Assembly (NCBI GenBank): GCA_964460615.1
Contig: CAYWPX010000003.1
Location: 155,028-219,027 of the forward strand
From: an uncultured Planctomycetia bacterium
Lineage (GTDB): Bacteria; Omnitrophota; Gorgyraeia; CAYWPX01
Direction of reading: 5' to 3'
Length of the DNA: 64,000 bases
Within the stretch, counting starts at the first letter, position 1, and the number at the start of each line of letters is the position of its first letter. A program made the translations under genes and the position numbers. Below, one piece after another: positions 1 through 62,675 of the stretch. The notes beneath the pieces are model-generated. The model was not told where the DNA came from, did not search any database, and saw nothing but the letters and a program-made list of their open reading frames with translations.

Positions 1-3000
1 AGCGCTTTGGCTCCAACTGAAAGCTTATCGTTTAAAGAAATCATTGCTGAAGGCTCTAATTTGAATCTATCGCTCAATCCTACTCCTCCAAAATTAGTTG
101 CATTAGGCTCCCAGAACCATGTACCAGGCTTTGGAGAACCGGGGAAGTATTTTGACGCGCCAAACCCAAGAGCAAGATGCAACTTAGGATCATTGTTAAA
201 TATAACGCCGTTAATATCAATGCCACCGAATGCAGTCCCACCTTGGGTAGCTCCAAGTAAACCTTTAAGACTTATTCTCCCGCCGTTATTAAGCCCGTAT
301 GTTGTGCCAGCTCCTATGTAACCGGCAGGCGTGCTTCCTGTGTTAACGTCAGAATTCGGAATCTGCAGGCCGCCATACATCAAATAATAATTTCTGAAGA
401 ATGTTGCGCCCTGCACCTGAGAAAGCGTAGCTTCTCCGGTAGGAGTCTTTAGCAGGTTAGTTCCGCCTGAAATAACAGTCTGGCCGGCGTTTATAAATAT
501 CGGCTTTGACCATGCACTTGCTATTCCAGCCTGTCCTTCCTGAGAAACTATCCTGACCCTTACATATTTGTGTCCGAAACTCTGATCACAGCTAATTGTA
601 GTCTGAATATCAGAATATGTCTTAGTATAGCCGCCTTCCGGGAACTCAGGGTATTTAGAAGTCTGGACAACATATATAGTCTTTCCATATGTAGCTCCAT
701 TAGGCTCACTAACTGTAACATTAAAGCCTAAATCATTAGGTATGACTCCTGTAACCGTAGGAGCATCCATGGCTTCTGGGATATTCAGATTAGATATACT
801 GCCAACATAAGGCGTACCCTCAACCAAACCAGCCATGTTTCCGGTGCAAGGAGTAATTCTTGCAAATTTAAGGCCCGGTGTCTGGTTTTTAATATATGCC
901 CTGACCTTGCCCGAAGAAGGCTGAACTACATAATCTTCGACAAATACCTCATTGCTATTATCAAAGGATCCGGAAGCATTAGTAGTTACTTCGACCTTAT
1001 AAGCTGTGGCGCCCGGGACCATATCAAATTCTACCCAGTAGTTGCCCTTAGACTCTGTGAAACCGTTAATAGCCTTCAATTGAGTAGGCAAAGCAAAGAA
1101 CATGGATACAGGATCTGACCACGAAACCACCTGCGCTCCGTCTGGGCCATCTTCAAATATTGCGTACCTGACCCACTTGTGAGTTCCGGTGCTGTCATAG
1201 CTTCTATTGAGATACTGGCTCATGGTGGTTCCATCCGGATAGTATTCAGCAACCGGCTTGACAAATTTGCTGGTTGAACTATCAACTGAGAAGTACTGAT
1301 CATTAGATGTCTGTATCGCCAATCTCTGGCCCGGGCTTGTCTTAGTCCAGCTCAACTGATAGCCCATAACCGGGTAATAGTTAACCCCAAAAACCGATGA
1401 AGGCGAAGGCATCTCAGCGCTTGATATCAGCGATTTATCAACAGTTTTTACATTAGCAGATTTTACAGGGCCCATCTTGTTGCCATGAAGAACTATGATA
1501 GCATAGTTATCATAAAGCGTAGTCTTGCTCCAAAGGTTTATATAACCAACTGAAGAGCTCTGGTTCTTACCTACGCCAACTATCTTAACTCCGCTTGCTA
1601 GTTCTCCGTTCTGAACAAAAACAGGGCTAGCGCCATTTACTCCGACAAGCATGTAGGTAACGTCATATTTATCGCTTGTGCCGGGTATTGTTTCGCCGGT
1701 TGCATAAGGAGTATTAAACGTAAGTTTGTTGCCTGAGATCGAAGGAGTTGATAAGCTGGCAGCATTCAAAGCCGATGGCGCATCTATCGCCTGTGATAAA
1801 GCATATTCTGTCCATCCGCCGACTGGGTATCCGTTTTCATCGATCTTTCTTATGCGGACCTTTGTATGGCCTTCGCTCTTATATAAGTAAGCGCTTGTAG
1901 CATCACTTGCGGTACCATAGACTGATACAGGACCAGTGGTAAAGTCTGTAGCTGTAGTCTGGATCTCAAGCCTTGCGCCATTTGCCCAGTTAAGCTCATA
2001 AGCGCTTCCATTAAGAGGGTTCTGTGCATTAATACCGATTTCTTCTCCGGCGCTTACTATCTGAGTAGCCGAGAGATCAACTTCTTTATACTGGTCTATA
2101 GAGGTTAATGACTGGGTTGATTTTACCTGACCGGTTGTTAATCCATGTAAAACAATTATAGCTGCCTTCTTGAAGGACTTATCAGTTATATTCACATAAC
2201 CTGTGCCATCGGCCAAATTGGTTCCCATGCCGATTATCTGTACGCCTGGCGCCAATTCTCCTTCAGCTCCGACAAATACTCCGTCGCCGTCTTCATTGAG
2301 ATTATTGGTACCGACAAGCATATAAGTAACAGTATATTTACTTGAGCTTCCAGGAACAGTATCACCGGTAACACCCTTGAAGGTGATCTTATCATTACCG
2401 ACAGATATATCAGCAAGATTGGCAGATTTTGCACTAGGAGCTACTATATTAATATTTACAGTTGTATACCCTGTAACCGGATGTCCATACTGGTCAACCT
2501 GACGGATCCTCAGTTTTTTGTGGCCAAGCGACTTATATAAGTTAAGAGCCGAAGTTCCGGCAGGAACTGAGTATGTAACAACATTGCTTGTGAACTTGCC
2601 ATCTACTTCTGTGAAATCACCGTCTGTTGTCTGAATATCTATAGCTTTCGAAGTATCAGTCCAGCTGTATGTATATTTACCGTCAAATGTACCTGCCTGA
2701 GCAGTCGGAATAGTCATTCCGGTGACTTTGGCAGTAACATCAAGAATCTGATTTGATACACCTTGAGTTGATTTTGCATAACCATCTTGTAATCCGTGGA
2801 GCACAATGATGGCAAAATTACTGAATGATTTATCCCAAACATTCGCATAGCCTCTGCCACCGGCGTTGGTACCGGAACCGACTACGCTTATAGAGCTGGC
2901 AGAATAAGGCTCACCGTCTTTAACGGTTATAGGACTATTTGAACCAACAACAATGTATGTAACTTTATAACTTCCATTTTCAGGATTTACTGCATTGAAA

Positions 3001-6000: not shown

Positions 6001-7080
6001 GAGCTAAGGCCGCTCGCTGTCAATGGGTTTCTGGAACTAATGGCAGGAATCCTCATAGCACCTGTAAACTCAGTTACAAAATTCCCATTATCATCTACTA
6101 ATGCCAGCCTTATATAAGTATCACCGTCAGCCCCTACAAGCCTAACATGATTGGATCCGGCAGCGGCAGTATTCCCTTGAATAATTCTAGTATTTTTGAA
6201 TGTTCTATCTTTAGAAGTATTTACTGCAAGCCTGTAACCTGCCGGCAGGTTGTTAAATACCAACTTATTTCCGTCAACTATGTGAGCGCCGATATTAGCC
6301 GCTGTAAGACCGGTTGCCCCAAGCGGATTAAGTACCTGCACATTGTGTAAAGCAACTGCTTTAGAGGCATTGCCTCTAACGAATTGGTTCTTTACTCCTG
6401 TAAGAGCTCTTACTCTTATCGCCTTTGCATTAGTAATAGGAATAAAGAATTTAACGGTGCCATTAACAGGATGATCTATATAATATCTCTTGACATATCT
6501 TTCGCTGGAAAATACCCTGTTTGCTGCATCATTTTCAGTTTCACCAGATAATTTTCTGATAGGTGCAGTGGAAATTTCTATCTCATAACCTGTCGCACCC
6601 GGAACCGATGCAAATGTGAAGAGATTCGTTCCGGTCGTATTCCTGAAAGTACTGGCATTCGGTGGATTAGCCGCTGCGGGAGCTTCAAAACCAAGCCTTG
6701 TCAAATTGCCGGAAGTATAAGCATTACCGGTCTCTCTTTTCTTAATAGAACCGTTAGCCCCTCTTTCCAGCACTCTTATAGTATAAATTCTAACATATTT
6801 ATGCCCAGCGCTGCTTTTAAGATAAACTGAAGTGTTGTTTGCGCCTCTTACTGAATACCCGACGGTCTTACTGTTCGGGAAGGTCGGATCGGATGAGGTC
6901 TGAACATAATATTCTATATCGCCGGTTGTATTAGCCGGTTTGGCCCATGACAACTTATAGTCATTTGTTATCTTGAATGTGGTAGCAACGGGTGGTTGCG
7001 TAGCACGTCTTGGGACCAGGTTTGACAGGTTCAATGCCTCTGCAGGAGTGGTTATCGCAGGATTACCCAACAATGTCACT
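1..7080 (-). repeat. C-terminal array of at least 12 Ig/FN3-like beta-sandwich modules (continues beyond the window)
   Basis: Recurrent module signature …W…P…(I/V)QTS(S/K)xxxF…Y…LYKSxGH(T/K)Y(V/I)R(V/I)…D(E/A)NG…WSE. Examples: GHTYVRYAIV, KYMRVALV, KYIRVALATD, TYIRLALVDDNG, GHKYVRIYTI, GHTKIRVRTVDENG, GHTKVRIRKIDENG, GHKKLRIRQVDQYG. Confidence 0.55.
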
Positions 7081-42266: not shown

Positions 42267-42269
42267 CTA
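42267..42269 (-). other. Single in-frame TAG inside a YD-repeat (…ITTYNIYGDM-TAG-SVQDKNGRKTYYKNFRDSKGDLIKRYEK…)
   Basis: Verified by reverse-complementing 42181-42281. The same frame and repeat register continue on both sides. The next in-frame ATG is 166 codons downstream (41769-41771). Confidence 0.9.
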
Positions 42270-54200: not shown

Positions 54201-57200
54201 TCCATCTTTATAGGTATGGAACTCATAATAGTTTCCTTTAGCCTGGAAAACTATCTTATATCCTGAAATACTTTCTACGGTATTATCGCTTGAATAACCG
54301 CCAAGGGTACGATCGGCCCACTGTGCTTTTTCTACGCTTATAAGCTTGAAATCAGCACTGACAAGGTTAAAGATATCAAACTGCGCATCTTTAAGAGCTG
54401 TTCTAGTGACAAGATATGCCTTAGCATCACTGACTAAGGTATACATATCGCTTAGCTCAGGTATTAAATATGCATTTGTAAGATTTGTGTGGAATTCGTA
54501 GGTTTTAGCGCCATAGCTAAGGATTATTTTATAGCCTTCTGTATCGGTCCCTGAAGGCGTAATATCCGTCCTGTATCCGCCGAGTGTCTCATCATCCCAG
54601 ATCATTTTCTGCACAGAAGCTATAGCAACGGCTTTCTTATCATCTGTTGTTGAGCCAATGAAACTCTTGGACACAAGTGCGTTGATAGAACTATATATAA
54701 GAGGTATTGTCACAGCATTAAGGTTAGTGGCACAATAAAGAGTTGTTGCGCCTTTTCTTAAATGGTATTCGGCTACTAACCCGCCAAATGTAAAAAAGAG
54801 TTTATACCCTTTTACATTCTTAGTTGTAGAAAGACCTGTTGGATCAAAGCCGCCCAAAGTATCATCGGCAAATGTATATTCCTGCATCCCTTCAAATTTA
54901 ATTTCTGAAGCACTTGAGATCGGGGCAACTGTCCTAATTTTATTATATAAATCTGTCCTGGCGGAAGCTACATCGTTTGTAAGTACATTTATAATTGCAG
55001 GATCCATATATGTCTTTGAATCAGGATCGGCAAGTACCGAGTTATACATATATAGGAAATTATTGGCTGAGAAGAAGAACCTGTATGCAGTGGTTTCGTT
55101 ATCAAAAGTTCCTTCGGGGTCAGCCTCTTTGGTACGCAATGTCTGTATCTGAGAATTGGTCAGGGCCTTGTTATATATCCTCACTTCATCAATAACGCCG
55201 TCCCATTTACCATAGTTAGCTGACTGCCATATACCGATAGATGTGGTACTAGCAGTTGATGTATAGGCAGGCAATAAACCTGTTTTTAAGGTTGAAGCTA
55301 TGCCGTCAACATAGAGTTGCCCCGTACCCTTATCAGAATCATATGCCAAAGCCACAAAATGCATCTTGCCGTCGTTAATATTCACATCTGAAGTAAAATA
55401 TGTTTCCGTAGTGCCGCCGTTACCTACTCGCGCGCCAACCTTGCCATCATTGCCAACATAGATCATATAATTCTGGGTATAACCACTGCCGCCTTCGCCG
55501 CGAGATACAATAGTCCTGAAGTTTTGCCCCGTAATAGGCCCATCCCATTTAAACCATGACGTGACCGTGAAATTACTTAAAGAAAGATTATTATTATTCC
55601 CAAGGCTTATATAATCACTTGTTCCATTAAAATTATACCCTCTGCCGCTCTGGCCATTTACTAGTACAGGTGAACCATAAATAGTCCCGTTATAGTTATT
55701 ACCTGTCATATCATTGGCATTACCGTCAAATTTGTAAAATGCGGCCATATCTGTATTATTTACGGGAGTACCTTCGAGGATATTCTTAAGTGTAATATCT
55801 TCTTCGGATATGCCAGTCCTTGCTGCAAGGTCTGCAATGCTATTCTTAAATGCATTGACCTTCTGGGTTAAATTTGGTTCCGGATATGCCTCTCCGGTAG
55901 TAATATCTATAATATATGTTATCGGTAGACCTTTATAGCTGAATTTAACCTTTAATCCGGCGGTAGGCGTCAGCATTGTTGTATCATCATCGCTTCTATA
56001 ACCATCAAAGTCATAATCGCTGAATATTTTGCTCTCAACCGAACTTATGCTCATATTATTAACATTAAATGAAAAATCTGAGACAATATCCAGCTTGGCA
56101 TTATTCACTATCTGCCTTACACGATCAGCGGAAATAGTGACATCCTTATCTGTTGTAAGGGCTGTGCTTTTACCATCGGCATCAAAAATGAACGCTGTAC
56201 CGTCAATATTAGTGATTTTCTCGACTTTACCGTTTGCGCCATATTGAATAATTATCCCGCCGCCATTCTGGGTTGAGGATTCTACGGCAGATACGGATTC
56301 TACAAGCCTGTTTATAAGCTCAGGATTTATTGAAAGGATATACTGATACCTGTCACTCGGTATGATAAAGCCAGTCCCCGGTGTACCTTCAAACCCCCAG
56401 AAATTCAGATTGTTGTTATCAAGATAGGTTTCGATCTCAAGTATTGCATTAAGGAAGCCTGTCTGATCCATAAAATCAGCGGTTAAAAGTTTGTTTCTAT
56501 AGTTCTTTACAAAATAAGCAGCTCTGTCAGCAGGTACGTTGCTGGAATTCAACTCAAAGTAATCCAGGTCCTTTGTGGTACCATCCGGATAAGTAACTCT
56601 GATAGTATTTTCATCAATAATTGAATATGTCGTTCCGACTGCATCACCAAAATCATTGATATTGTTTGTTGCTATAGAATCATTATTGACGACATATTTA
56701 TAATTATCGATAGCCCTTAATAGGCACTCTGATATTACATTGCCGTTATTCTGAAGGAGATACCCAAGCCTTGAGCCAGGCATGCTAGTAGCGTCATAAA
56801 GTGACCCTATCGGATCTCCAAACGAATTCAGGTTGAGTGATTTTAGGATATCATTTATTATAGAAATTCCTTTTGAACTATAATTAAAGGTATAAGTCTC
56901 ACCGGTTGTCTCTGTGATCTTTATCACAAGGCCGTCAATATTGAAATCAAGCTTTCTGCCCTTAGAATCATATATGGACAATACATTGCCATTTTCGTCT
57001 CTATTGAGCTGGTTAACTGAAGTTGTACCGCTGGAAACAATAACTTTAATTATCTGTCCGCTCGAATCCTTTATATAAGTATAAACCTTTATACCTGAAC
57101 TTGTCATAATAGTAGAAACCATGCCGTCATTATTATAAGTAGTTACATTACCATCATAATCCTCAGATGAAATAAGTTTTTCACCCTGAATCACTCCTCC

Positions 57201-60200
57201 TTCATAAATATATTCAAATCTTAATTCATATTCACCGTCAGTAACAGTCTTAAATGAGGGCAACCCTGTCTCCGGATCAAACTCGTAACCGTAGAAAACT
57301 CCGTCTTCTTCCGTAATAATTGGATTCATGCCCGTGTCAATGGCATTAAAATTTTCATATGTACTGACAACGCCGCTTGGGCTGATCTTTTTGATCTCAA
57401 GGATGCTTTTTCCTGTGATGTTATTATCGTCATCATAAGCATAATCCCATGTATATCTGACTTCTGAATTATCTGGGTATACTATTCTATTGACAGACCC
57501 GTTAGAGTCGTAGAATTTTTTCATAGTGTCGCTTGTCCCGGCACCTGCTTCACTGATAAATTCACTCATTGGATCCATTGCAAAATCGCTGTAGTTGGTC
57601 CCGAATGTGGCAGGATTATAATTCTTAAAACCGGGCTGCTGGTCTATGAAGCTATTATTAAGATAAAAATCAGGATATGTGGCAAACAACCTTGAATCAA
57701 AAGTCAAGGTAGACGCCCAAAAAACGTTATTCTCAAATACATTAATATCTTCAGGCGCTACTGAAGTTTTAAGCTGGTAATTAACCGCCATTTCCTGCGG
57801 ATTGATTATGATATTATTTCGGATAGTCGGATTGGCCTGAATGATGTTTATAGCCATTTTTGTATTATTGATAGTATTATTTTCTATCAGAGGGTCACTA
57901 GGCTCGTAGGCAGCATCGCTGAAAGATTCCAGCTCAAATCCTCTAGTCATATTATTAATAACATTATCTTTTATAATACCGCCAAATCTGCCCCATCCTT
58001 TTATGGCAGTGCTGTAGAAAAATGAGCTATAATAAGGTATTACTTCACCATAGTAAGTCCCTGAACTAAAATAGTTATTGGTTATTGTAGCTGCTGCATA
58101 ATCAAGAAAGATACCGGCATCTCTAGTATCAAGGAATTTGTTATTATTAATGAGTATGTTATAATCTGTATCCATATATTCAGTATAGGAGCCGCTTATC
58201 CAACCAACGCCTATTGCCCCACCGTTGCCACCTGAACCCATATACCTGAATGTATTATTTTCGATAGTAACATTCCTTGACCTGTCAACCCAAATTCCGT
58301 ACCTTGGGCCATTATTATATATACCTTCGAATGTGATACCGCTTATTACTACGTCATTAGCATGGTCCACCGCGACCATGCTTGTATACCCGCCTATATT
58401 TTTAACGATTTTTGTCTTATCCGCTCCCTGGCCAAGAAGCCTTACTCCCTGTTTTAGTTTAATGCTGCCGGAATAAAAATTAAATGTACCTTCACCGAGC
58501 ATAACCGTATCGCCATAATTTGCAGAGTTAATTGCGGCTTGTATTACCCCTTCGGCGTTAGCGCCGTATGTTGATTTAAAATAAGCCGTGCTCATACTTC
58601 TCGGCGAGCCGTTATTTATAGTATAGGTTATACTGCTATTATTAGTTCCGTAGAAACCCACAACGGTAATAAGCCCGCTTGTTGCATTAAAGGTTGTCCC
58701 TACGACAAGCTCTCCGGTCCATGGATTAATAGGGGCGTCAACATATATGGTATTGCCGACTTCCTGTCCAAGAATATTTTTGTTCTCGTCATCAGTAAGA
58801 AGTACTGCACCGTCTATTTCCTCAGAAGTAAGAATCTCTCCATTAAACTTTTCTTTAAACTCCTCTATTGATTCGGTTACTGATACACCGTTATCGTTAT
58901 AATTTACATTTCCATCGGCAACTGAAACAATAACAACATAGTGATTGCCGTTTATAAAAGCCACTCCTGGCTGCGTAATCTTTACAAGGTCGTTATCAGG
59001 ATCGATTTTATAGGCCTTAAGATCAAATCCTTTTGCATTGGCGTATCTAGCTATACTTTCAAAGGAGATCTTAAGATCAGCATTTGAATCCTTCAGTTCA
59101 GTGGTAACCCCTGTCAGGATATCATAGAGAATAGTTGCTATAGCTATTTTTTCCTTTTCCTGGTCAGGGAAAAAATAATTTAATACATTAGTTGCGCAGT
59201 TAATTATGTTCGTAATCTGATTATTAAGATAAGAAATTATCCCATTAATTCCTGTCTGTGTTAAAAGTACGGGATTGGTCCCGGACAATATATTTCTGAT
59301 ACCGGCATACTGGTCATTAGCCGTATCCATCACGCTTTCAAGAAATGTCCTTATGACATCAATAACCCTTGAAGCCATTTGAGAAACATTGGTTAGCGGC
59401 GTCAGGTTAAGTGAATCAAAATAATTCGAAATCTTCGTAAATACATCGAGTGATTGTTCCTCGTCAAGCTGGGCCTTATTGCTGTACCACTCGCCGTTAA
59501 GCTTTTCAAGCTTTATTTTAAATACAAGCGTCTGGCCGGCCATCGGATGAGTACCGGTAAGCCCGTATGCCCTTTCCGGAGGAATAACAACGGTTACTTC
59601 TTCGCCAAGCCTGAGACCTACTACCGCATCTTCAAATCCTTTAATAACAGATCCGCTGCCGATACTGAAATTTAATAACGTAGAAGAATTTTCATTAGTA
59701 TCAAAAACCTCTCCATTAAGGTAAGAACCTGTATATTTGACGCCTATCGCGTCCCCTAATTTCGCAAAATCAACCTCATTGCCTGATTTAACAACTGTTT
59801 CGCCTACGATCTCTTCATATGTACCATCAGATTTAATGACAAACTTGCCAAGTATATTTCCTTCGCCGTCTTTCTTGTAAGCGTATTCGGTTTTCTTGCC
59901 GGTTTTATCGGTCTCCGAAACTAAAAAACCGTTTGCATCTCTCTCGATTTTTGAGCCATCACTAAATATAACAGTAGTAGATATTGTTGTGCCGGCAGTA
60001 TCTGTGCGTTTTGTAAAGGTAGAGTTCAGATAAACCCTGAATTTCGCAAGATCAATTTCCCTGATGCCATCCCCATTTATATCCTGGCCTGCAACATCAG
60101 AACCGAATTTATTGACAAGAGCCTTTACGAGAGAATCCCAGCCTGCATCCGTTACATAGCTCTTCCACATAGTAGGGTAACTTCCGGTAGTATCCCAAGT

Positions 60201-62459
60201 AGTATCAAAATTCGACCAATCTATTTCCGTTTCAAGGTCCGCCACATCGTCTGCTGAAATTCCGGACAAGGCATAATCAATATCGCTTGTTTCGTATTGA
60301 TCATTAGAAATTACGGTTCTTCTCTTAACTTCATCCTTAATTATATTTCTTAGCTGTTCAATATTTATATTGACCGTTTCATCAATTAAATCAATGCCCT
60401 CCTGAGTTCCCGCTGCCTGGGCGGGCATTTCAGGAGCTTCTTCACTCTTCTTGCCGGCGCTTCCTTGAGGCGGCTTAACCATCGGCAACTCATTATCTTC
60501 ATCAGTAGCGGCTCTACGTCCAGTTATTAATTGATCAAGCCAGTCAACAAAATTGGCTAATCCAAGGCTCTGAATAAAATATATTGCCTGTAACTGATAA
60601 TCCTGTTTTTTAGAAAATTTGTCTATAAGGTTTTTCGTAGAATCTGCTATCGTACTAACAGTTGACGGAAGCGGCGCGAACATTCTCTGGATATAAGCAG
60701 AAAAAGCGGCATTTGCGTCTTCCTGTTCCTTTTTATAAAGCGGGTCGTTATTATCTCCGATACCATTTTTATTTACATCCGACCATTCGTTTAGATCGAA
60801 AGGAAACGCGTCAACATCATCCGTATAACCATCCGCATCCGAATCATCGTCTTTAATTAGGCCCGTTGTTGAGGTGCCTGTTATAGTATCTGGTTTACCG
60901 TCCTTATCAGTATCTTTAGAGGCAGATGCATCCAGTGGGAAAGCGTCTATATTGTCATTTACTCCATCGACATCACTGTCAACCAATGCGGGATTCAAAC
61001 CCTTCATAAGCTCATCTTTATCTAAAATTCCATCACCATCAGAATCACTTGACAATGGGTTAATGCCCCTATCCAGCTCTTCTTTGTCAGGCACCCCATC
61101 CGCATCCGAATCGTTAGTCAATGGATTCGTCCCAATCGTAAGTTCATTATTATCATTAATACCATCGTTATCGGTATCTTCAATGAGAGGATTTGTACCT
61201 AACTCGATCTCCCTTAAGTTTGTTACTCCATCGTTATCATTATCAGGGAATTCTTCTCCTATAACCTGATCATTCAAATCCAAATGAGTAATCTTCCCTA
61301 CTAAATTAGAAGCTGCAAGCTCTTTCAGGTCATAACCGGTAAGGACGCCGTTGGCATACACATATTCCCTGATAGTCCCGTTATTATAAACTTCCTTGAG
61401 TATCTGGCCGTCCTGAGAAATGTATGTCTGATCATTGGTTTCTGTGTTCTTTATGACAATCCCATTAATATTGTATATGAATTCATATACTACATTATCC
61501 TGGCCCATCAAAGATTTTAACCTGTTAGAATAATCATATTTAAGGGTTAAAGTAGGAGTGACAACCGTTGTTTCAACAATATTCTCACTGGCATCTCTCG
61601 CATAGGAATAATTATCCTCTGTCCCATCCTGATAGATAATTTTACTTATTAAATTATTTTCAAATAACACCACTTTATTATCGCTGGCATATTTTATGGA
61701 CAGAACCTTGTTATCAGGGCTATAAGTAACTATATCGCCGTTATTAAGCGTTGCTATAATTTTAGCGACATTTCCTTCATTATCCAATTCATACGAATAA
61801 TTAGTTGTGACTCCGTCTTTAGTATAAGAAGATATTCTGCCATTATCAAAATTTATAGTTTCGCCGGAAGTAAATGTGTAAGAAACAATATTTCCATTTT
61901 CATTATATATGAGGAAACTACCGTTGGATTTAGTTATAGTGATCTGTGTTATTTTAGTGGGATCGGTTTGATCAAAAACATAGGAATAGACAGCTACATC
62001 GCCGGTTGCTTCAGTTATAGTATCTATAAGATTATTATTGAATGTAACTACTTTGCCGTCTTCATATACCTGGCTGACTACATTACCGGTTGCATCAATA
62101 TTGGTTGTCACGACATTACCGGGAACGGTTTCTTTGTTAAGCGCTTTATTCTGAGCTTCTTCAAGCGCCTGCATTTCTTTTACAAGTTCTTCCTGTCTAG
62201 ACTGGGCATCCTGTTGTGTACTTAACGGCACAGATTGTCTTTCTTGACGCTGTTGCATTAATTCTCTGATGTCTGCAGCCCTAGAAACTTCCTGAAACAA
62301 AAAAGTAAAAACTAGCACGGATGCAATTGTTTTGAGCCAAAATCTACGCCTAGCTGATCTCCACTCGAGAATGCTCAAAAGCTCTGCTTCGGTCCTGTCA
62401 TCGTAAAATGACATCTCACCCACATCATCTCTTGGTCTAATTTTTTCTTCGTTTGTCAT
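42267..62459 (-). CDS. Giant multidomain surface protein, N-terminal 6730-aa segment (start ATG at 62457-62459; ends at the in-frame TAG 42267-42269)
   Basis: ORF track gives 6730 aa with no stop. AAGGA lies 7 nt upstream of the ATG. The N-terminus carries one hydrophobic helix (FWLKTIASVLVFTFLFQEV). The protein is rich in T/Y/D/N/G/S and full of YD repeats (YxYDxxGN-type), with LamG, beta-helix, FKBP and TSP3 motifs. Confidence 0.9.
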   Translation of the reverse strand: MTNEEKIRPRDDVGEMSFYDDRTEAELLSILEWRSARRRFWLKTIASVLVFTFLFQEVSRAADIRELMQQRQERQSVPLSTQQDAQSRQEELVKEMQALEEAQNKALNKETVPGNVVTTNIDATGNVVSQVYEDGKVVTFNNNLIDTITEATGDVAVYSYVFDQTDPTKITQITITKSNGSFLIYNENGNIVSYTFTSGETINFDNGRISSYTKDGVTTNYSYELDNEGNVAKIIATLNNGDIVTYSPDNKVLSIKYASDNKVVLFENNLISKIIYQDGTEDNYSYARDASENIVETTVVTPTLTLKYDYSNRLKSLMGQDNVVYEFIYNINGIVIKNTETNDQTYISQDGQILKEVYNNGTIREYVYANGVLTGYDLKELAASNLVGKITHLDLNDQVIGEEFPDNDNDGVTNLREIELGTNPLIEDTDNDGINDNNELTIGTNPLTNDSDADGVPDKEELDRGINPLSSDSDGDGILDKDELMKGLNPALVDSDVDGVNDNIDAFPLDASASKDTDKDGKPDTITGTSTTGLIKDDDSDADGYTDDVDAFPFDLNEWSDVNKNGIGDNNDPLYKKEQEDANAAFSAYIQRMFAPLPSTVSTIADSTKNLIDKFSKKQDYQLQAIYFIQSLGLANFVDWLDQLITGRRAATDEDNELPMVKPPQGSAGKKSEEAPEMPAQAAGTQEGIDLIDETVNINIEQLRNIIKDEVKRRTVISNDQYETSDIDYALSGISADDVADLETEIDWSNFDTTWDTTGSYPTMWKSYVTDAGWDSLVKALVNKFGSDVAGQDINGDGIREIDLAKFRVYLNSTFTKRTDTAGTTISTTVIFSDGSKIERDANGFLVSETDKTGKKTEYAYKKDGEGNILGKFVIKSDGTYEEIVGETVVKSGNEVDFAKLGDAIGVKYTGSYLNGEVFDTNENSSTLLNFSIGSGSVIKGFEDAVVGLRLGEEVTVVIPPERAYGLTGTHPMAGQTLVFKIKLEKLNGEWYSNKAQLDEEQSLDVFTKISNYFDSLNLTPLTNVSQMASRVIDVIRTFLESVMDTANDQYAGIRNILSGTNPVLLTQTGINGIISYLNNQITNIINCATNVLNYFFPDQEKEKIAIATILYDILTGVTTELKDSNADLKISFESIARYANAKGFDLKAYKIDPDNDLVKITQPGVAFINGNHYVVIVSVADGNVNYNDNGVSVTESIEEFKEKFNGEILTSEEIDGAVLLTDDENKNILGQEVGNTIYVDAPINPWTGELVVGTTFNATSGLITVVGFYGTNNSSITYTINNGSPRSMSTAYFKSTYGANAEGVIQAAINSANYGDTVMLGEGTFNFYSGSIKLKQGVRLLGQGADKTKIVKNIGGYTSMVAVDHANDVVISGITFEGIYNNGPRYGIWVDRSRNVTIENNTFRYMGSGGNGGAIGVGWISGSYTEYMDTDYNILINNNKFLDTRDAGIFLDYAAATITNNYFSSGTYYGEVIPYYSSFFYSTAIKGWGRFGGIIKDNVINNMTRGFELESFSDAAYEPSDPLIENNTINNTKMAINIIQANPTIRNNIIINPQEMAVNYQLKTSVAPEDINVFENNVFWASTLTFDSRLFATYPDFYLNNSFIDQQPGFKNYNPATFGTNYSDFAMDPMSEFISEAGAGTSDTMKKFYDSNGSVNRIVYPDNSEVRYTWDYAYDDDNNITGKSILEIKKISPSGVVSTYENFNAIDTGMNPIITEEDGVFYGYEFDPETGLPSFKTVTDGEYELRFEYIYEGGVIQGEKLISSEDYDGNVTTYNNDGMVSTIMTSSGIKVYTYIKDSSGQIIKVIVSSGTTSVNQLNRDENGNVLSIYDSKGRKLDFNIDGLVIKITETTGETYTFNYSSKGISIINDILKSLNLNSFGDPIGSLYDATSMPGSRLGYLLQNNGNVISECLLRAIDNYKYVVNNDSIATNNINDFGDAVGTTYSIIDENTIRVTYPDGTTKDLDYFELNSSNVPADRAAYFVKNYRNKLLTADFMDQTGFLNAILEIETYLDNNNLNFWGFEGTPGTGFIIPSDRYQYILSINPELINRLVESVSAVESSTQNGGGIIIQYGANGKVEKITNIDGTAFIFDADGKSTALTTDKDVTISADRVRQIVNNAKLDIVSDFSFNVNNMSISSVESKIFSDYDFDGYRSDDDTTMLTPTAGLKVKFSYKGLPITYIIDITTGEAYPEPNLTQKVNAFKNSIADLAARTGISEEDITLKNILEGTPVNNTDMAAFYKFDGNANDMTGNNYNGTIYGSPVLVNGQSGRGYNFNGTSDYISLGNNNNLSLSNFTVTSWFKWDGPITGQNFRTIVSRGEGGSGYTQNYMIYVGNDGKVGARVGNGGTTETYFTSDVNINDGKMHFVALAYDSDKGTGQLYVDGIASTLKTGLLPAYTSTASTTSIGIWQSANYGKWDGVIDEVRIYNKALTNSQIQTLRTKEADPEGTFDNETTAYRFFFSANNFLYMYNSVLADPDSKTYMDPAIINVLTNDVASARTDLYNKIRTVAPISSASEIKFEGMQEYTFADDTLGGFDPTGLSTTKNVKGYKLFFTFGGLVAEYHLRKGATTLYCATNLNAVTIPLIYSSINALVSKSFIGSTTDDKKAVAIASVQKMIWDDETLGGYRTDITPSGTDTEGYKIILSYGAKTYEFHTNLTNAYLIPELSDMYTLVSDAKAYLVTRTALKDAQFDIFNLVSADFKLISVEKAQWADRTLGGYSSDNTVESISGYKIVFQAKGNYYEFHTYKDGAINKIYLDPVMDNTASFGNNIGAIKNAISNLSTFLACDKNKIKFVSMIRPEGEDYKIVLKYKGITYEYDYDGTTLTLKPIMAGQPLVNGKKLIEAIAKDLYENIAGYGVGKYDLYFGEEITLAGIVNYNWADSTLDGYDLTGDKNVPASGYVVKLNYKGMVFEYHYNASNGRFFLNPNIKLYDAVKVSFKVDELGRLKSITDSNGQDIFYLYGINKYGESTTFNSKVSLDTVTEYDVNGNRLSTSYYDGSKITYYVTNDERNGLTKEVFDSMGALGYRYIYTVDAAGQVETRTLLAGPLYQGSISAIKHDMSMGIDYSLLSIDTANTGNGVWTFKPVRFGTTNLQLVNQLVDTSDTDYNLTRGLFNIDLTVEDSEAAGVTHTIIVNSVGVVIRYDGEDVENGKIVFTINKNDTLRVELRNEITSGKGAYSWSLLTDGSLTPVADASSNLTLKGTKLGSEYLNFYNPITKESFFVSLSIEEAEEGYTPKTVIVTATNNINSSITLKMGDVVKFDLDSNWKLSPRVDTMHYYVYNAFGDIDHDVAQDGTTIYYSTDDEDKGIIIRKVDKYGRTIYDRNSENKPVTVTDKYGNFYYYEYLVDGEGYTMTKVTLMDGTPGAPGTNSIRIWKYNELGELISEMDARYPQSEITYQYFKNSSGKITGKLEIGLNIHNMYEYAPDGKLTRVTDIKNKVSTYTYTKDSENKDITLVETEKYIQTFNSDGDLIKNESKVNADDVTTYKYVKDPNGALIAKYEMKNNVVLTKYEYTKIGLTRMVPDSTGKFNEKVDPLVETKKVQNFPTSDVLANIFKQYSKVNDASPDVLLTTDENPMGYSFAPTRVLVKLNNGFTGADLDAIINEIKTVYGITNITKELISGVTYKITFTPGDVIETKYTYERDYFNSITNSIITETNKVTYINSQGDVTKIVDKSAKTVTTFSYLKDASYGFNTQVTETIGDDANGDGEISGAETSYVNSIKYYDSKGRITALIDKGGIASGDTQSSPSIKYYYDPVTDLLNRAYTKSENTTSFYYDSMVTDSLEKGVVWRVEAGDVATPGSGTLKATYNYEYDESTGNMLWYDEVAYDTFVLDKYDGTTENLNTVVTINKKIEYVYTTTKPYRLMMIKAKDKAGKITRHYYNTSTGELVRSYSEENNLTYFYDAKNNISDIYEGDLGAKDISKLKTHYDYTYDASGQITRSVETRYIASGTVTATETNTTDFDSIGRISKVTDKAGHEYFYYYQSNPADPTPDKAKFNKLNYIYDQYNDTTSFYNNAGLLKSVYKGNSANPSVTDLLYRYVYSASDFASDYNYILLKDRKIGYKRLEGASSGGYGNEDFTNTGIRYDKQLVTNYSQGTVEFWYQPEWASGKDTSILKCATTDTVSSTSYLGIYMRKAGTANNKIYFRYGVNETNAVTLDLDAPADDSPFKFANFNNKWHHFAITWSGGRFYAYIDGTLIGSATFATPSLPSTFYFGNGSVNATSRGLNGTVDNIVGFNYGKTLDQLKEDYLSTPLFGATGQTFFDDFEGTNSATGRVAITGNIAKGGLITLSETYDTTYYNGRTGDPAYTDVAAKRGKSKTQLDVLNNRTYAYEYDNFGNLKYVYDQKNNQTSYYDDKANVTDIYKGNGDAAKLPANLLYHYDYTFDENGNIIQRKDTRKVTVDGGQVMDDVTTNIYDINEGKIVEVIDNNNNKFYYEYTPVWINGVQHMGDLRTIYDEFNGQTTFYDATGNVTDVYKGDYRGYNNFIMNLNGYLSPETHLVHYNYYMDSKGAIKRSVEKYFEKKATGQSLFIGNNQAVDYSRTGILSTFATGTLDMWVKPMDVTSVHNYFYLGAGGTGGTEQHLRLAFDPTSIGGGKVKGFIFTMGNGTSKTEIAMNGNVEVGEWYKLTVTWNFSATTKFVALYVNGEQRAYRDNTTTFYYPTTISSTTYPKFRIGNVYTVTTTGANAFIDNIRFTSSTVTGRSQVADDYKGLYPGNVTTLFSADYEGSVNGTVTGTKVGMATEFYKAGITVQPTVTTKFYYNNDDDAGSANIGKVYRSFNRVETDRTKIDNIQYTYDAEGYLLYSEDKTGSPNKKIVYNKRGLMTEYYEWVSTAYVLKKTYSYAYSDANGNLGDVLSQTEYITGTQKYNVTTFNSYGKIDTVIAYDNNGTTVLGRYKYYYDTESLVGVSYAIEKTDPTTNAKTTDYFNKDNFVEDTYAGVYGDLTKQLYHYEYTFSVYGNNLEMETSIRFDMTKPSDTVPVAGDIYFYRSGKYYYVYDKSIYKTNTNGYTATVGDVVSSINQNGAVTDYVYSGGKLSYTTYKPNGVDGAGALRTYYKDNPLDATQRVADYVYGWNSGTTYNVPVSKYYVYSSISDTIRSNDVKFISYEYDMSNYAIGTDLSTFNPQTGTYANLFTKRGYLTNNFNGNLMCIIDKNGARTDYFYNTNGLAFSFDQTKKQFTYYDDKNQPRDVYKGTYSTTPDENALKLSGWLYHYEYTFDSKLTLQTIKEYDKVNGNGLSIREYDEDGNLTAYTDRFNNRTTYTYTNGILTKSHDLSRKRTTLYYTTGIEKGQPSDIYYDQNGLGTGEYYQLKHYTYTFTANVYNISTSTETSYDKVNGGGETLTTTSTTTYNYTTVGGYTFVQNYYITDSDNWKTYYYFDVTANYGALLRSYSERDKQVTEFDNTGNPVAIYRYLGSTAYTGVAPVGVNYALLADYAYTYDTNNLIRTVTSNNYDKDSYNNVITQTSTTTYFYSGNSVEHTEMTDSTGNVIKNYYNTDSGRLISSYNKASNTTSFFDAYSGEVTSVYNNDYTPNKTKVAADLRNSYAYTYNATTGNVTNITETRYNDSGVANGTVISDLYYNSATGNKKLINKIVVIKDKMGNVTDKVRYAYDSDREAISKIYNYYKNETSTLDNFGQVLVVYKGNMLGEDLDNDAVIDAGEDIDQDGTLDAAIALSNQYRVRSYLYTYQSGRLVKSEEIVYYDYISDVSFKSYKNVTTYEYETVNGIAKVKKVTVKDENDKIKGIYFYNTTSDKLDSVYDPSQNELTYYDTNSSPLNIFEASLDASNNVIKGNQKYWLVNTYDATYTDRLITVAKYKGASLTVDNLLNKSYFSVADGRVEKQEFFNGSATPETTRTYVYVNGVLATAKEQSTDSRGQETLVTYFYEGTSGNERMVRMIDPSNSMETYYFYKGEITPDPNVIGATLNLTGITLDIDSDEAGSDNADMDYCISVRKLMDGSVERTVTVFQGTGNSEKVAVIYSLGADTTYKSNIHPRTLYYYDSATGKLINTTESNPNRPNALAQGVTSLTRYADVDGEQRAVSYESYDSVITYVYKDDGNLDYTITKDKRSYYGAQTSYYDADGKITLIKDKNEIMYYFEYPTDANGYNNYAIGYSKTVQKIYYKRSGAEVVSVSKEEYTAHSTDPAYFVVSSSKEYNNNSEMIESVDENGISTKYSYLKDSASGRTKYMYTSMTYTDPTNASNVITNVKGYEYYVESTVPASVPASQKAGWIGQIKALIDENGHKTMYSNYAFDDKGNVASVRETDWAFRGEDVNGNGVLDAGEDTNSNGQLDSKYLDKYFVTETGSINTYGDLTMVGELDYSKDNKGNRIYYQYNKDYKGNRTRITQTFFSYEGGATDPYSYSMTTYYNADGSIKALTDKNGNNSSFTYEWDNKLNVIASHETTTRHEDINNDGTYEYIEVKKTKNFYINGAVMSEVEDRKGTDAQFNKTITFTYTNDSLGNTTKMRRTTTYKDDINQDGVADQTITFYEDTEYNLEGDVVKFTDKNSRVTEYAYLKDALGNVTSSIEKASYRDTDINCDGVIDANDQVTNYSQKFFEDGSLVSIIDQNGAETRIGYERFATGDIKKRIEYKKIGKDITTGDEQFVATGTIEYDLLGNPIASTNEYGIVKNITYNRNYRGEITEVINTTPARNNKVERVVMDPRSGDNLQSIDNNGNITKFSYTKDAKGNILTATQTKTNASGVNYVDSITTYNIYGDM
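48359..48899 (-). other. LamG-like domain 3
   Basis: GTLDMWVKPMDVTSVHNYFYLGAGG…GEWYKLTVTWNFSATTKFVALYVNGEQRAY. Confidence 0.55.
49814..50249 (-). other. LamG-like domain 2
   Basis: QGTVEFWYQPEWASGKDTSILKCATTD…NNKWHHFAITWSGGRFYAYIDGTLIG. Confidence 0.55.
53684..54929 (-). repeat. Five tandem copies of an uncharacterised module of about 95 aa (about 285 nt)
   Basis: Protein repeats: FADDTLGGFDPTGLSTTKNVKGYKLFFTFGG…EYHL; WDDETLGGYRTDITPSGTDTEGYKIILSYG…EFHT; WADRTLGGYSSDNTVESISGYKIVFQAKG…EFHT; …EDYKIVLKYKGITYEYDY; WADSTLDGYDLTGDKNVPASGYVVKLNYKG…EYHY. The periodicity is also visible at nucleotide level, for example …gttttagcgccatagctaaggattattttatagcc… and …gtttcctttagcctggaaaactatcttatatcc…. 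Confidence 0.6.
55169..55775 (-). other. LamG / concanavalin-A-like lectin domain 1
   Basis: AFYKFDGNANDMTGNNYNGTIYGSP…SWFKWDG…HFVALAYD…LYVDG…WDGVIDEVRIYNKALT. Confidence 0.6.
57660..58590 (-). other. Right-handed parallel beta-helix (pectate-lyase-like) region
   Basis: Repeated NNxxxxN rungs: VTIENNTFRY, ILINNNKFLD, TITNNYFSS, IKDNVINN, LIENNTINN, TIRNNIIINP, VFENNVFW. Confidence 0.65.
58890..59280 (-). other. Possible papain-like (C39-like) cysteine peptidase domain
   Basis: A Cys in NIINCATNVL, followed about 85 aa later by GNHYVVIVSVADGNVNY (His then Asp). The spacing resembles the C39 family. This is motif-level evidence only. Confidence 0.3.
59531..59789 (-). other. FKBP-type peptidyl-prolyl isomerase domain
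   Basis: GVKYTGSYLNGEVFDTNE…NFSIGSGSVIKGFEDAVVGLRLGEEVTVVIPPERAYGLTGTHPMAGQTLVFKIKLEKL, a typical FKBP C-terminal signature. Confidence 0.7.
60734..61277 (-). repeat. Thrombospondin type-3-like Asp-rich Ca-binding repeats (about 10 units)
   Basis: Repeated DxDxDGxxDxxE and TNPLxxDSDxDG motifs: DNDNDGVTNLREIELGTNPLIEDTDNDGINDNNELTIGTNPLTNDSDADGVPDKEELDRGINPLSSDSDGDGILDKDE…. Confidence 0.65.
62286..62342 (-). other. N-terminal transmembrane signal-anchor helix (residues about 40-58)
   Basis: RRFWLKTIASVLVFTFLFQEV is preceded by basic residues and followed by a coiled-coil-like segment rich in Q, E and R. Confidence 0.7.
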
Positions 62460-62466
62460 AGCTTTT

Positions 62467-62471
62467 TCCTT
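62467..62471 (-). promoter_or_regulatory. Ribosome-binding site AAGGA, 7 nt upstream of the ATG
   Basis: Minus strand reads aaaaaaggaaaaagct then ATG. Confidence 0.5.
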
Positions 62472-62495
62472 TTTTAATATTCAGTTCCTAAACTG

Positions 62496-62523
62496 TTTAT
62501 AAAACTTTTTATAAAAAAGTCAA
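62496..62523 (-). promoter_or_regulatory. Candidate sigma70-like promoter: TTGACT, 15-nt spacer, TATAAA (minus strand)
   Basis: Reverse complement reads ttgacttttttataaaaagttttataaac, about 40-65 nt upstream of the ATG. The spacer is short and the -10 is imperfect. Confidence 0.3.
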
Positions 62524-62675
62524 AAAAAAATTCCCGGTTATATTTTATCAATATAAACTAGGCAAAACTTTTCTATGATTTTTAAAATCATACTCAACCT
62601 CATTATTCTCCATAAAAATATACAAAATATGTTTTCATATTTCTAACATAAGTATACCTTACAGAAATACATATT

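What the first reader, a model, noticed from the sequence alone, without database searches (positions are those of the whole stretch)
1..62459. One reading frame of at least 62.4 kb (about 20,800 codons) on the minus strand, continuing beyond the window
From the ATG at 62459 to position 1, minus frame 0 contains one triplet that is a stop (TAG at 42267). Outside that TAG the 6730-aa ORF is stop-free per the track. I found no stop in a full hand translation of 1..42266 (14,088 codons), and the ORF track shows no interrupting ORF. Ordinary AT-rich sequence cannot do this by chance. The frame must be (or very recently was) translated as a single protein larger than any titin-scale bacterial protein. 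It resembles the giant genes described in Omnitrophota-like bacteria.
Basis: seen in the sequence. Interest (0 to 1): 0.9.

Follow-up and report, generated by a model that had tools for sequence, protein, structure and literature searches.

The report
Very large Omnitrophota-type gene, one stop
The window is almost entirely the first 62.4 kb of one enormous membrane and surface protein gene of the already described Omnitrophota large/giant-gene kind, cut once by a TAG that looks like a point lesion rather than a gene boundary, so it is real and striking but not a new kind of thing.

Summary
The minus-strand frame that starts at ATG 62459 runs 20,819 codons to the window edge with one stop, TAG at 42269-42267. 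About 1,385 stops are expected by composition. The other five frames carry 852-2,423.

The frame is coding. It has a low-GC leader and an N-terminal membrane anchor. About 8,300 aa of surface-type modules follow: TSP3, YD/RHS repeats, FKBP, a C39 peptidase with Cys/His, beta-helix, LamG. After that come transmembrane clusters, an ATPase whose best fold match is SecA, a membrane GT2 synthase-like domain, a PHP domain, and at least 12 all-beta repeats.

Only the ATPase module has detectable relatives. Every named one is a large Candidatus Omnitrophota MAG protein. This layout matches published Omnitrophota large/giant genes, with predicted proteins up to 85,804 and 147,155 aa. The claim "larger than any bacterial protein" is therefore wrong.

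The TAG sits inside a YD repeat unit. No start codon follows for 69 codons, no Shine-Dalgarno sequence or RNA structure is present, and codon usage is continuous. I read it as a very recent nonsense allele or a base-call error in a single gene. Which of the two cannot be settled without reads. New member of a known kind.

The parts
3..62459 (-). Whole reading frame: 20,819 codons, one in-frame TAG, open at the window's low end (3' end of the gene not in the window)
42267..62459 (-). ORF A: ATG 62459 to TAG, 6,730 aa
42267..42269 (-). The single in-frame stop (TAG), followed by A
42228..42287 (-). YD/RHS-type repeat unit NIYGDM*SVQDKNGRKTYYK that straddles the TAG (residues 6725-6744)
   Evidence: Custom repeat HMM built from the protein's own units gives domain E 8e-7. 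Further units lie at residues 6891 and 7057 after the TAG. Pfam RHS_repeat hits fall on both sides.
3..42266 (-). Open frame B: 14,088 codons without a stop. No ATG/GTG/TTG in the first 69 codons, first ATG at codon 166, none preceded by a Shine-Dalgarno-like sequence
62460..62745 (-). 286-bp leader/intergenic region, 21% GC, with A9 and T9 runs. Promoter-like TTGCAA-17-TATACT at 62679..62651 and AAGGA 9 nt before the ATG
62289..62339 (-). N-terminal hydrophobic anchor (residues 41-57, WLKTIASVLVFTFLFQE) preceded by RRR
   Evidence: read from the sequence
60810..61244 (-). Bacterial thrombospondin type 3 (TSP3) calcium-binding repeats, at least 4 tandem 22-aa units (residues ~406-550)
   Evidence: Pfam PF18884 E 2.4e-8; motif count
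59508..59765 (-). FKBP-type peptidyl-prolyl isomerase domain (residues 899-984)
   Evidence: Pfam PF00254 E 3e-20; NCBIfam
58824..59207 (-). Peptidase C39 domain (residues ~1085-1212) with Cys1088 (INCATNVL) and His (NGNHYVVIV) at the expected catalytic positions
   Evidence: Pfam PF03412 E 2e-8; sequence reading
57762..58493 (-). Right-handed parallel beta-helix (NosD/Beta_helix), residues 1323-1566
   Evidence: Pfam PF13229 E 3.4e-14, PF05048
55143..55628 (-). LamG_3 (concanavalin A-like lectin) domain, residues 2278-2439
   Evidence: Pfam PF13385 E 1.2e-24
49722..50189 (-). Second LamG_3 domain, residues 4091-4246 (a further weak LamG at 4609-4668)
   Evidence: Pfam PF13385 E 9.7e-21, two stretches
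40053..40493 (-). DUF7402 domain, residues 7323-7469, in the part after the TAG
   Evidence: Pfam PF24135 E 5.4e-10
36852..37451 (-). First internal cluster of hydrophobic helices (residues 8337-8536, 3-4 helices); end of the Tyr-rich, helix-free N-terminal region
   Evidence: Kyte-Doolittle scan and composition per 1,000 aa
26532..30212 (-). Conserved ATPase module (residues ~10750-11976). Motifs: PAGTGKT (11013-11020), DEAD (11147-11150), a ~255-aa insert, GFSGT, GATRGID, RDRG. It ends in a hydrophobic helix at 11958-11976
16638..18869 (-). Second cluster of about 8-9 hydrophobic helices (residues 14531-15274). It encloses a Glyco_trans_2_3 domain (14735-14897, window 17769-18257) with DKDE and RDVRW motifs
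   Evidence: Pfam PF13632 E 1.3e-11
11532..11822 (-). PHP phosphoesterase domain (residues 16880-16976), DMHYHTYYSDG metal-binding motif present
   Evidence: Pfam PF02811 E 3.4e-8; NCBIfam
384..6908 (-). Array of at least 12 diverged copies (25-45% identity) of an all-beta module of ~100-215 aa (residues 18518-20692)
   Evidence: Self-BLAST, HMM iteration, alignment A1. AF2 pLDDT 72, all beta. Foldseek gives only weak Ig/FN3-like matches, E>0.03.
62746..64000 (-). Upstream neighbour, same strand, cut by the window end: LamG_3-containing protein ending in TAA

Best explanation
The window holds the promoter-proximal 62.4 kb of a single very large gene of an Omnitrophota-like bacterium. It belongs to the published class of Omnitrophota 'large/giant' membrane-anchored proteins.

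Shown: the gene starts at ATG 62459 behind a 21%-GC leader. It encodes an N-terminal membrane anchor and about 8,300 residues without hydrophobic helices that carry surface-type modules. These are TSP3 calcium-binding repeats, YD/RHS repeats, an FKBP isomerase, a C39 cysteine peptidase with its Cys and His, a parallel beta-helix, LamG lectin-like domains and DUF7402. Next come a cluster of 3-4 membrane helices, a two-RecA ATPase whose best structural match is SecA and which ends in a membrane helix, a GT2 glycosyltransferase embedded in 8-9 helices, a PHP phosphoesterase, and at least 12 all-beta repeats.

Inferred: the long N-terminal part is displayed outside the cell as an adhesion or attack stalk. 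The SecA-like ATPase sits in the cytoplasm and helps export parts of the same polypeptide. The GT2 module makes or exports a glycan. The C39 domain may cut the polypeptide into pieces.

The TAG at 42269-42267 is a point lesion inside one YD repeat unit, not a gene boundary. The two halves were one gene until very recently. The lesion is either a genuine, very young or polymorphic nonsense allele (my estimate about 45%) or a consensus base-call error (about 25%). In the first case the cell would make only the 6,730-aa stalk.
For: Frame statistics. Domain content on both sides of the TAG.

The TAG lies inside a repeat unit. RHS/YD units occur on both sides. A 150-aa domain of A (residues 2922-3072) has a paralogue in B (6863-7000) at 30% identity. 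The Tyr-rich composition continues to about residue 8,000, past the TAG at 6731.

No start codon occurs within 69 codons after the TAG, and later candidates lack a Shine-Dalgarno sequence. No minus-strand terminator and no excess of promoter-like sites is found near the TAG. GC3 (0.376 vs 0.384) and synonymous codon usage are continuous across it.

In B, 4.27% of possible substitutions would create a stop. The absence of any stop in 14,088 codons therefore limits neutral divergence since inactivation to below about 0.17% (my calculation).

Omnitrophota link: an exhaustive HMMER search with the ATPase module gave 23 representatives. All eight of the ten clusters looked up that carry an organism name are Candidatus Omnitrophota/Omnitrophica MAG proteins of 350-7,836 aa; the two JGI clusters are labelled only 'hypothetical protein'.

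SecA is the top hit in two independent fold searches.

Match to published architecture: N-terminal C39 near the signal or anchor, a long helix-free N-terminal part, then membrane helices followed by a SecA-like domain, glycosyltransferases, and a low density of Pfam domains (10.1101/2023.11.21.568195). A low-GC leader before a giant gene is described in 10.64898/2026.06.04.730025.
Against: As written, the sequence does not encode one protein, because translation should stop at residue 6,730.

No orthologue covering the TAG site could be found, so the ancestral codon is unknown. No reads are available, so error and real allele cannot be separated.

The taxonomic assignment rests on one 1,200-aa module. 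The rest of the protein has no detectable relatives, and the window has no marker genes, tRNA or rRNA.

Membrane topology comes from a crude hydropathy scan. No function has been tested.
Confidence: 0.72

Rival explanations
1. Two genuine, stably separate genes that happen to share a frame. The first is a 6,730-aa anchored surface protein ending at TAG. The second starts at an internal TTG or ATG (for example 42059 or 41771).
For: Read with the standard code, the TAG is a stop. Relatives of the ATPase module exist as complete proteins of only about 4,000 aa (L003), so a smaller unit is viable. Fusion and fission of neighbouring genes by stop gain or loss has been proposed for huge proteins (PMC11573180).
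Against: The TAG splits a repeat unit, and the repeat family continues after it. The first possible start is 70 codons downstream and the first ATG 166 codons downstream, none with a Shine-Dalgarno sequence. The 69-165 codons between the TAG and those starts have no stop, although 6.7% of random codons would be stops. B has no signal or anchor at its beginning. No intergenic signature is present, unlike the true 5' end with its 21% GC leader.
Confidence: 0.1
2. The TAG is decoded. Leaky or programmed read-through, an amber suppressor tRNA or a rare recoded amino acid yields a short 6.7-kaa form and a long >=20.8-kaa form from one mRNA.
For: 14,088 downstream codons remain intact without any start signal. 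This fits continued translation. The TAG is followed by A; my own recollection, not checked here, is that this is not the strongest termination context in E. coli.
Against: There is only one TAG in 20,819 codons, so TAG is not a general sense codon. No stable RNA structure follows it (z +0.85). No Rfam element or tRNA is present in the window. None of the papers opened (West-Roberts 2023, Nielsen & Lui 2026, PMC11573180, 10.64898/2026.06.04.730025) describes stop-codon recoding in Omnitrophota. Intactness is equally explained by a very recent lesion or an error.
Confidence: 0.08
3. Artefact: a chimeric assembly or a non-coding open frame.
For: The source contig could not be retrieved for checking. 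Amino-acid composition differs between the first 8,000 and the later residues.
Against: P(<=1 stop) is about 1e-619 by chance. Many significant Pfam domains lie along the frame. GC3 and codon usage are uniform, and the compositional change lies about 1,500-3,000 residues after the TAG, not at it. The frame is kept exactly across the TAG and within a repeat unit. No repeats exist that could mislead an assembler.
Confidence: 0.02

Closest known systems
Omnitrophota large/giant membrane-anchored proteins (West-Roberts et al. 2023, bioRxiv 10.1101/2023.11.21.568195; Nielsen & Lui 2026, bioRxiv 10.64898/2026.06.07.730766), including the Velamenicoccus archaeovorus giant protein
   Same: It is a tens-of-kb single frame with an N-terminal anchor and a C39 peptidase near the N-terminus. 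A long helix-free N-terminal part is followed by membrane helices and a divergent SecA-like ATPase. It carries a glycosyltransferase, many hydrophobic helices, mostly Pfam-dark sequence and diverged protein-level repeats without nucleotide tandems. The bulk of the protein is sequence-unique. The only detectable relatives are in Omnitrophota MAGs.
   Different: Only 20,819 codons are seen so far, which is 'large' rather than the >=30,000-aa 'giant' tier. It fits neither named subtype cleanly. TSP3 repeats and the TM-free N-terminal layout recall the Dockerin type, but no dockerin domain was detected. A GT2 domain recalls Archaeovorins, but HEAT, GT5/GT1, methyltransferase and NUDIX domains were not detected in this part. 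It is rich in YD/RHS repeats, which Nielsen & Lui never mention and which I did not see in the sections of West-Roberts that I read. It carries an in-frame TAG.
RHS / YD-repeat polymorphic toxins and teneurin-type YD shells
   Same: YD repeat units (Pfam RHS_repeat, TIGR01643) are scattered over residues ~100-7,100.
   Different: No RHS core is present: the NCBIfam RHS_core match is 14 bits against a cut-off of 2,000. There is no PxxxxDPxGL core-end motif and no recognisable C-terminal toxin after the repeats. The repeats are spread over about 7,000 residues and interspersed with lectin, beta-helix and calcium-binding modules.
SecA preprotein translocase motor (and SecA2)
   Different: Identity is about 10-14%. 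There is no Pfam SecA_DEAD match and no detectable scaffold or wing domain. The module is embedded in a >20,000-codon frame and followed directly by a membrane helix. Other SF2 helicases score almost as well.
Giant bacterial adhesins and other huge non-Omnitrophota proteins (PMC11573180)
   Same: Very long surface proteins built of diverged repeats with calcium-binding modules.
   Different: Those are typically repeat-only secreted proteins. This one combines a surface region with internal membrane clusters and cytoplasm-type enzymes (ATPase, GT2, PHP).

Membership tests
Omnitrophota large/giant proteins (West-Roberts 2023; Nielsen & Lui 2026) | Predicted protein >=10,000 aa ('large') or >=30,000 aa ('giant') | tested here: inconclusive
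   The frame is 20,819 codons but interrupted once. The uninterrupted pieces are 6,730 aa and >=14,088 codons, the latter without a start. The >=30,000 tier cannot be judged because the gene runs off the window.
Omnitrophota large/giant proteins (West-Roberts 2023; Nielsen & Lui 2026) | Encoded in an Omnitrophota genome | tested here: inconclusive
   There are no marker genes in the window. Every homologue of the ATPase module that carries an organism name is from a Candidatus Omnitrophota MAG. No relatives were found among the GTDB species representatives with the tool's close-relative scan.
Omnitrophota large/giant proteins (West-Roberts 2023; Nielsen & Lui 2026) | N-terminal signal or anchor with a C39 (or S8) peptidase domain near the N-terminus | tested here: met
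   Hydrophobic anchor at residues 41-57. Peptidase_C39 E 2e-8 at ~1085-1212, with Cys and His present.
Omnitrophota large/giant proteins (West-Roberts 2023; Nielsen & Lui 2026) | Multiple transmembrane helices | tested here: met
   The hydropathy scan gives 19 overlapping peaks, about 15 distinct segments, in clusters at residues 8337-8536, 11958, 14531-15274, 15620, 17555 and 18453. The method is crude, and no dedicated TM predictor was available.
Omnitrophota large/giant proteins (West-Roberts 2023; Nielsen & Lui 2026) | Divergent SecA DEAD-like helicase/ATPase domain | tested here: inconclusive
Omnitrophota large/giant proteins (West-Roberts 2023; Nielsen & Lui 2026) | Neighbouring type II secretion / pilus or carbohydrate-active genes | not testable with these tools
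   Only 1.25 kb of one upstream gene (LamG_3) lies in the window. The source contig was not found.
Dockerin-type giant proteins (West-Roberts 2023) | Dockerin (PF00404) repeats together with TSP3 repeats | tested here: not met
   TSP3 is present. No PF00404 hit at E<=0.01 in any of the 21 chunks. Only scattered DxNxDG calcium-loop motifs are seen.
Archaeovorin-type giant proteins (West-Roberts 2023) | [quoted passage not shown] | tested here: inconclusive
   One GT2 and one C39 peptidase were found. No HEAT, methyltransferase, NUDIX or GH domains occur in the 20,819 codons available. The rest of the gene is unseen.
RHS / YD-repeat polymorphic toxins | YD repeats | tested here: met
   Pfam RHS_repeat in five chunks (four at or above the gathering score, one at 20.7 vs 22 bits) and TIGR01643. 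29 units found with a custom HMM.
RHS / YD-repeat polymorphic toxins | RHS core ending in PxxxxDPxGL followed by a variable toxin domain | tested here: not met
   RHS_core scores 14 bits against a cut-off of 2,000. The motif is absent.

The most novel reading that the evidence does not exclude
The TAG inside the YD repeat is real and is partly read through (near-cognate or suppressor decoding). One mRNA would then yield a 6,730-aa anchored surface stalk and, at low frequency, the full >=20.8-kaa protein with its ATPase, synthase and repeat modules. That would be a stoichiometry switch inside a giant gene. More generally, very large bacterial genes might tolerate or exploit internal stops.
Probability: 0.07. 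Interest if true: 0.6.

Novelty: new member of a known kind. Interest (0 to 1): 0.3.

Why it matters
This locus adds a well-defined example to the still poorly understood class of bacterial genes of tens of kilobases. It is almost entirely without sequence relatives among 5.8 billion proteins.

It has a clear modular order: anchor, ~8,300-aa surface stalk, membrane cluster, SecA-like ATPase plus helix, membrane GT2, PHP, and a beta-repeat array.

The one conserved piece is the SecA-like ATPase with its trailing membrane helix. This supports the published idea that such proteins carry their own export motor, and it offers a compact target for biochemistry.

The in-frame TAG is a practical warning. 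Gene callers will report this locus as a 6,730-aa protein plus an orphan, so surveys of giant genes can under-count or mis-size them.

The finding does not change the known size limits of proteins.

Tried and rejected
- Exact-match searches with window bases 1-60 in the genome and metagenome collections, meant to retrieve and extend the source contig, found nothing.
- A protein search with 1,201 aa centred on the TAG found no real homologues, so the ancestral codon could not be read from orthologues.
- A word-index search with the ATPase region found nothing. Only the exhaustive HMMER search found relatives.
With the single protein in the GTDB representatives it found nothing.
- The third protein search (N-terminal 1,400 aa) was swamped by generic TSP3-repeat proteins from many phyla and was uninformative for taxonomy.
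- PDB sequence searches of all of B and of the ATPase profile found nothing significant.
- A lenient Pfam scan of ten 1,000-aa chunks without hits found nothing credible, so more than 10,000 aa remain unannotated.
- A fold search of the C-terminal repeat gave only non-significant Ig/FN3-like matches.
- Tests for recoding signals at the TAG were all negative: RNA fold z +0.85, no Rfam family, no tRNA.
- RHS toxin reading rejected: there is no core and no core-end motif.
- Antisense ORFs of 198-349 aa have no Pfam hits and are treated as spurious.
- Chimera reading rejected on codon-usage continuity and the absence of repeats.
Full report
**1. Observation**

The minus-strand frame that contains ATG 62459 has 31 stops in the whole window. 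Thirty lie upstream of 62459. One lies downstream, a TAG occupying 42269..42267.

- ORF A runs from 62459 to 42267 and is 6,730 aa.
- After the TAG the frame stays open for 14,088 codons to position 3 and leaves the window.
- The other five frames carry 852-2,423 stops, and their longest open run is 417 codons.
- From base composition 1,385 stops are expected in this frame, and the chance of one or none is about 1e-619.
- There are no nucleotide tandem repeats and no DNA self-similarity.

The only inaccuracy is 'AT-rich': the window is 41% GC.

**2. Anatomy**

Residue numbers count from the ATG, with the TAG as residue 6731.

*Upstream and 5' end.* A gene on the same strand, LamG_3-containing and cut by the window end, stops with TAA at 62746. 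A 286-bp spacer of 21% GC follows, with A9 and T9 runs, a promoter-like site and AAGGA 9 nt before the ATG. A preprint on another Omnitrophota giant gene describes a similar very low-GC leader (10.64898/2026.06.04.730025).

*N-terminal surface-type region.* The protein begins with a basic stretch and a hydrophobic anchor at residues 41-57. About 8,300 residues without hydrophobic helices follow, rich in Tyr, Asn, Asp, Thr and Gly. Its modules are:

| Module | Residues | Evidence |
|---|---|---|
| TSP3 repeats (at least four) | 406-550 | |
| YD/RHS repeat units (29 with a custom profile) | ~100-7,100 | |
| FKBP isomerase domain | 899-984 | E 3e-20, |
| C39 peptidase domain | ~1085-1212 | E 2e-8, |
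| Parallel beta-helix | 1323-1566 | |
| LamG_3 domains | 2278-2439 and 4091-4246 | |
| DUF7402 | 7323-7469 | |

The C39 domain keeps a Cys (1088, INCATNVL) and a His (NGNHYVVIV) at the expected positions. The protein has only 26 Cys in 20,818 residues.

*Membrane and enzyme region.*
- A cluster of 3-4 hydrophobic helices lies at 8337-8536.
- An ATPase module lies at ~10,750-11,976 with PAGTGKT, DEAD, GFSGT, GATRGID and RDRG motifs. It ends in a hydrophobic helix at 11958-11976.
- A cluster of about 8-9 helices at 14531-15274 encloses a Glyco_trans_2_3 domain (14735-14897, E 1.3e-11). The domain has DKDE and RDVRW motifs, a layout like membrane-embedded processive GT2 synthases (the comparison is from my own knowledge).
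- A PHP phosphoesterase domain with its His motif lies at 16880-16976.

*C-terminal repeats.* At least 12 diverged copies (25-45% identity) of an all-beta module lie at 18518-20692. The AF2 model has pLDDT 72 and is all beta. Fold matches are only weak Ig/FN3-like ones.

More than 10,000 residues have no Pfam match even at E<=1 and no PDB sequence match.

**3. Relatives and taxonomy**

- The source contig is not in the searchable collections.
- The region around the TAG and the ATPase region have no close relatives among 5.8 billion clustered proteins by word-index search.
- An exhaustive HMMER scan of 1.84 billion representatives with the ATPase module found 23 proteins. Eighteen have E<=1e-10. 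Most are 1.6-7.8 kaa, several are shorter fragments, and many are partial on short contigs.
- Ten clusters were looked up. Every member that carries an organism name is from a Candidatus Omnitrophota/Omnitrophica MAG.
- The best hit, MDP3789433.1, is 63% identical over 230 aa.
- Against these proteins, similarity is confined to residues ~10,750-11,970, meaning the ATPase module with its trailing helix.
- Some relatives are complete genes of about 4,000 aa. In two loci a PilZ gene follows.
- No relative was found among the GTDB species representatives.

The Omnitrophota assignment is therefore probable but rests on one module.

**4. The ATPase module**

Pfam gives only sub-threshold ResIII/DEAD matches for this protein and its relatives, not SecA_DEAD. 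A profile search of PDB sequences finds nothing.

An AF2 model built with five relatives has mean pLDDT 66 and pTM 0.56.
- Foldseek against the PDB puts SecA first and second: 1tf2 at E 2.4e-8 and 2vda at 9e-8.
- DinG (15.6) and RIG-I (15.3) follow closely.

The ~255-residue insertion between DEAD and SGT lies where SecA carries its preprotein-binding domain (my own knowledge). I call it a SecA-like SF2 motor. This matches the 'divergent SecA DEAD' domains reported in nearly all Omnitrophota giants, but membership of the SecA family proper is not demonstrated.

**5. The TAG**

The TAG lies inside a YD repeat unit.
- With a profile built from the protein's own units, residues 6725-6744 (NIYGDM*SVQDKNGRKTYYK) match as a complete unit at E 8e-7.
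- Further units follow at 6891 and 7057, and Pfam RHS_repeat matches lie on both sides.
- A 150-aa domain in A has a paralogue in B.
- The compositional change from the Tyr-rich region to the Ala/Leu-rich region occurs around residues 8,000-10,000, not at 6731.

There are no restart signals.
- After the TAG there is no ATG, GTG or TTG for 69 codons, and the first ATG is at codon 166. None has a Shine-Dalgarno sequence.
- B begins without an anchor.
- There is no minus-strand terminator, no excess of promoter-like sites, and no low-GC spacer like the one at the true 5' end.
- GC3 (0.376 vs 0.384) and synonymous codon usage are continuous.

The TAG is therefore not an ancestral gene boundary.

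In B, 4.27% of all possible single substitutions would create a stop. An untranslated B would thus acquire about 1,805 x d stops at neutral divergence d. Having none limits d to below roughly 0.17% at 95% (my calculation, ignoring indels, which would tighten the bound). So the lesion is extremely young, or is polymorphic, or is a base-call error, or B is still translated.

There is no RNA structure after the TAG (z +0.85), no Rfam element and no tRNA in the window. One TAG in 20,819 codons also rules out TAG as a general sense codon.

My split:

| Reading of the TAG | Probability |
|---|---|
| Real nonsense allele | ~45% |
| Consensus error | ~25% |
| Stable two-gene split | ~10% |
| Read-through or suppression | ~8% |
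| Chimera or other artefact | ~2% |
| Unassigned | ~10% |

Reads would settle it.

**6. How it most likely works**

This section is inference, following the model proposed for this class.
- The N-terminal anchor holds the protein in the inner membrane.
- The ~8,300-aa stalk is displayed outside for attachment to, and attack on, another cell's surface. Its calcium-binding TSP3/EF-like loops, YD beta-repeats, lectin-like LamG domains and pectate-lyase-like beta-helix suit that role.
- FKBP may assist folding, and C39 may process the chain.
- The chain re-enters the membrane at the first helix cluster.
- The SecA-like ATPase, which needs cytoplasmic ATP, drives export of segments of the same chain.
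- The GT2 module polymerises or exports a glycan.
- The C-terminal beta repeats are again external.

None of these steps is shown here. What is shown is the domain order, the conserved motifs and the fold similarity.

**7. Comparison with the known**

West-Roberts et al. (2023) describe 46 Omnitrophota genes above 90 kb, up to 85,804 aa. They report N-terminal C39 domains, many membrane helices and divergent SecA domains. They define 'large' as >=10,000 aa and 'giant' as >=30,000 aa.

Nielsen & Lui (2026) report 3,650 proteins of >=10 kaa and a maximum of 147,155 aa. In their clustering 80% of clusters are singletons, and nucleotide tandem repeats have largely dissolved.

The present gene fits this class feature by feature. 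It is not a clean Dockerin-type (no dockerin domain) or Archaeovorin-type member, and its YD/RHS richness is not emphasised in those papers. It is not an RHS toxin, because it has no core and no core-end motif.

**8. Verdict**

This is a real, very large Omnitrophota-type gene and a new member of a known kind. An internal TAG will make gene callers split it.

Interest is moderate to low for a specialist (0.3). The only reading that would raise it is functional decoding of the TAG (about 7%).

Noticed in passing
window 3..62459 (minus frame); 62522 and 62681: Mononucleotide runs are strongly depleted inside the giant frame. There are 0 runs >=7 and 24 runs >=6, against 13.5+-3.2 and 53.6+-5.7 in 300 synonymous-codon shuffles that keep the protein (none as low). 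The only runs >=7 in the window (A9, T9) are in the intergenic leader. This is consistent with selection against slippage-prone tracts in a frame that cannot afford a frameshift. General homopolymer avoidance in coding DNA is known, from my own knowledge.
   Followed up: partly
window 62460..62745: The 286-bp region before the start codon is 21% GC against 41% for the window. A preprint reports a ~16% GC leader before another Omnitrophota giant gene.
   Followed up: partly
whole frame; Cys at residue 1088 = window 59196..59198: Cysteine is nearly absent, with 26 in 20,818 residues (0.12%). One of the 26 sits at the expected catalytic position of the C39 peptidase domain.
   Followed up: no
window 26532..30212; loci L001 (14114-14470) and L003 (12998-13372): The ATPase module with its trailing membrane helix is the only part of the protein with detectable relatives. 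It occurs in Omnitrophota proteins of very different sizes, including a complete 4,081-aa gene. In two of the four loci fetched, a small PilZ-domain gene follows directly downstream.
   Followed up: partly
window 62746..64000, minus strand: The upstream neighbour, cut by the window end, carries a LamG_3 domain like those inside the giant gene, followed by short repeated Gly/Tyr-rich segments. It may be a paralogous surface protein.
   Followed up: no
window 26197..27246 (+), 42417..43244 (+), 15646..16242 (+): Antisense open frames of 349, 275 and 198 aa lie opposite the giant gene. They have no Pfam matches and are most likely by-products of the codon bias of the sense strand.
   Followed up: yes
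window 53244..53696 and 41460..41873, minus strand (residues 2922-3072 and 6863-7000): A ~150-aa unannotated domain occurs once before and once after the TAG at 30% identity, E 6e-7. No family was assigned to it.
   Followed up: no
window ~42800..43620, minus strand (residues ~6283-6560): EF-hand/dockerin-like calcium-loop motifs (DxNxDGxxD) are interspersed between YD repeat units just upstream of the TAG. No Pfam dockerin hit was obtained.
   Followed up: no
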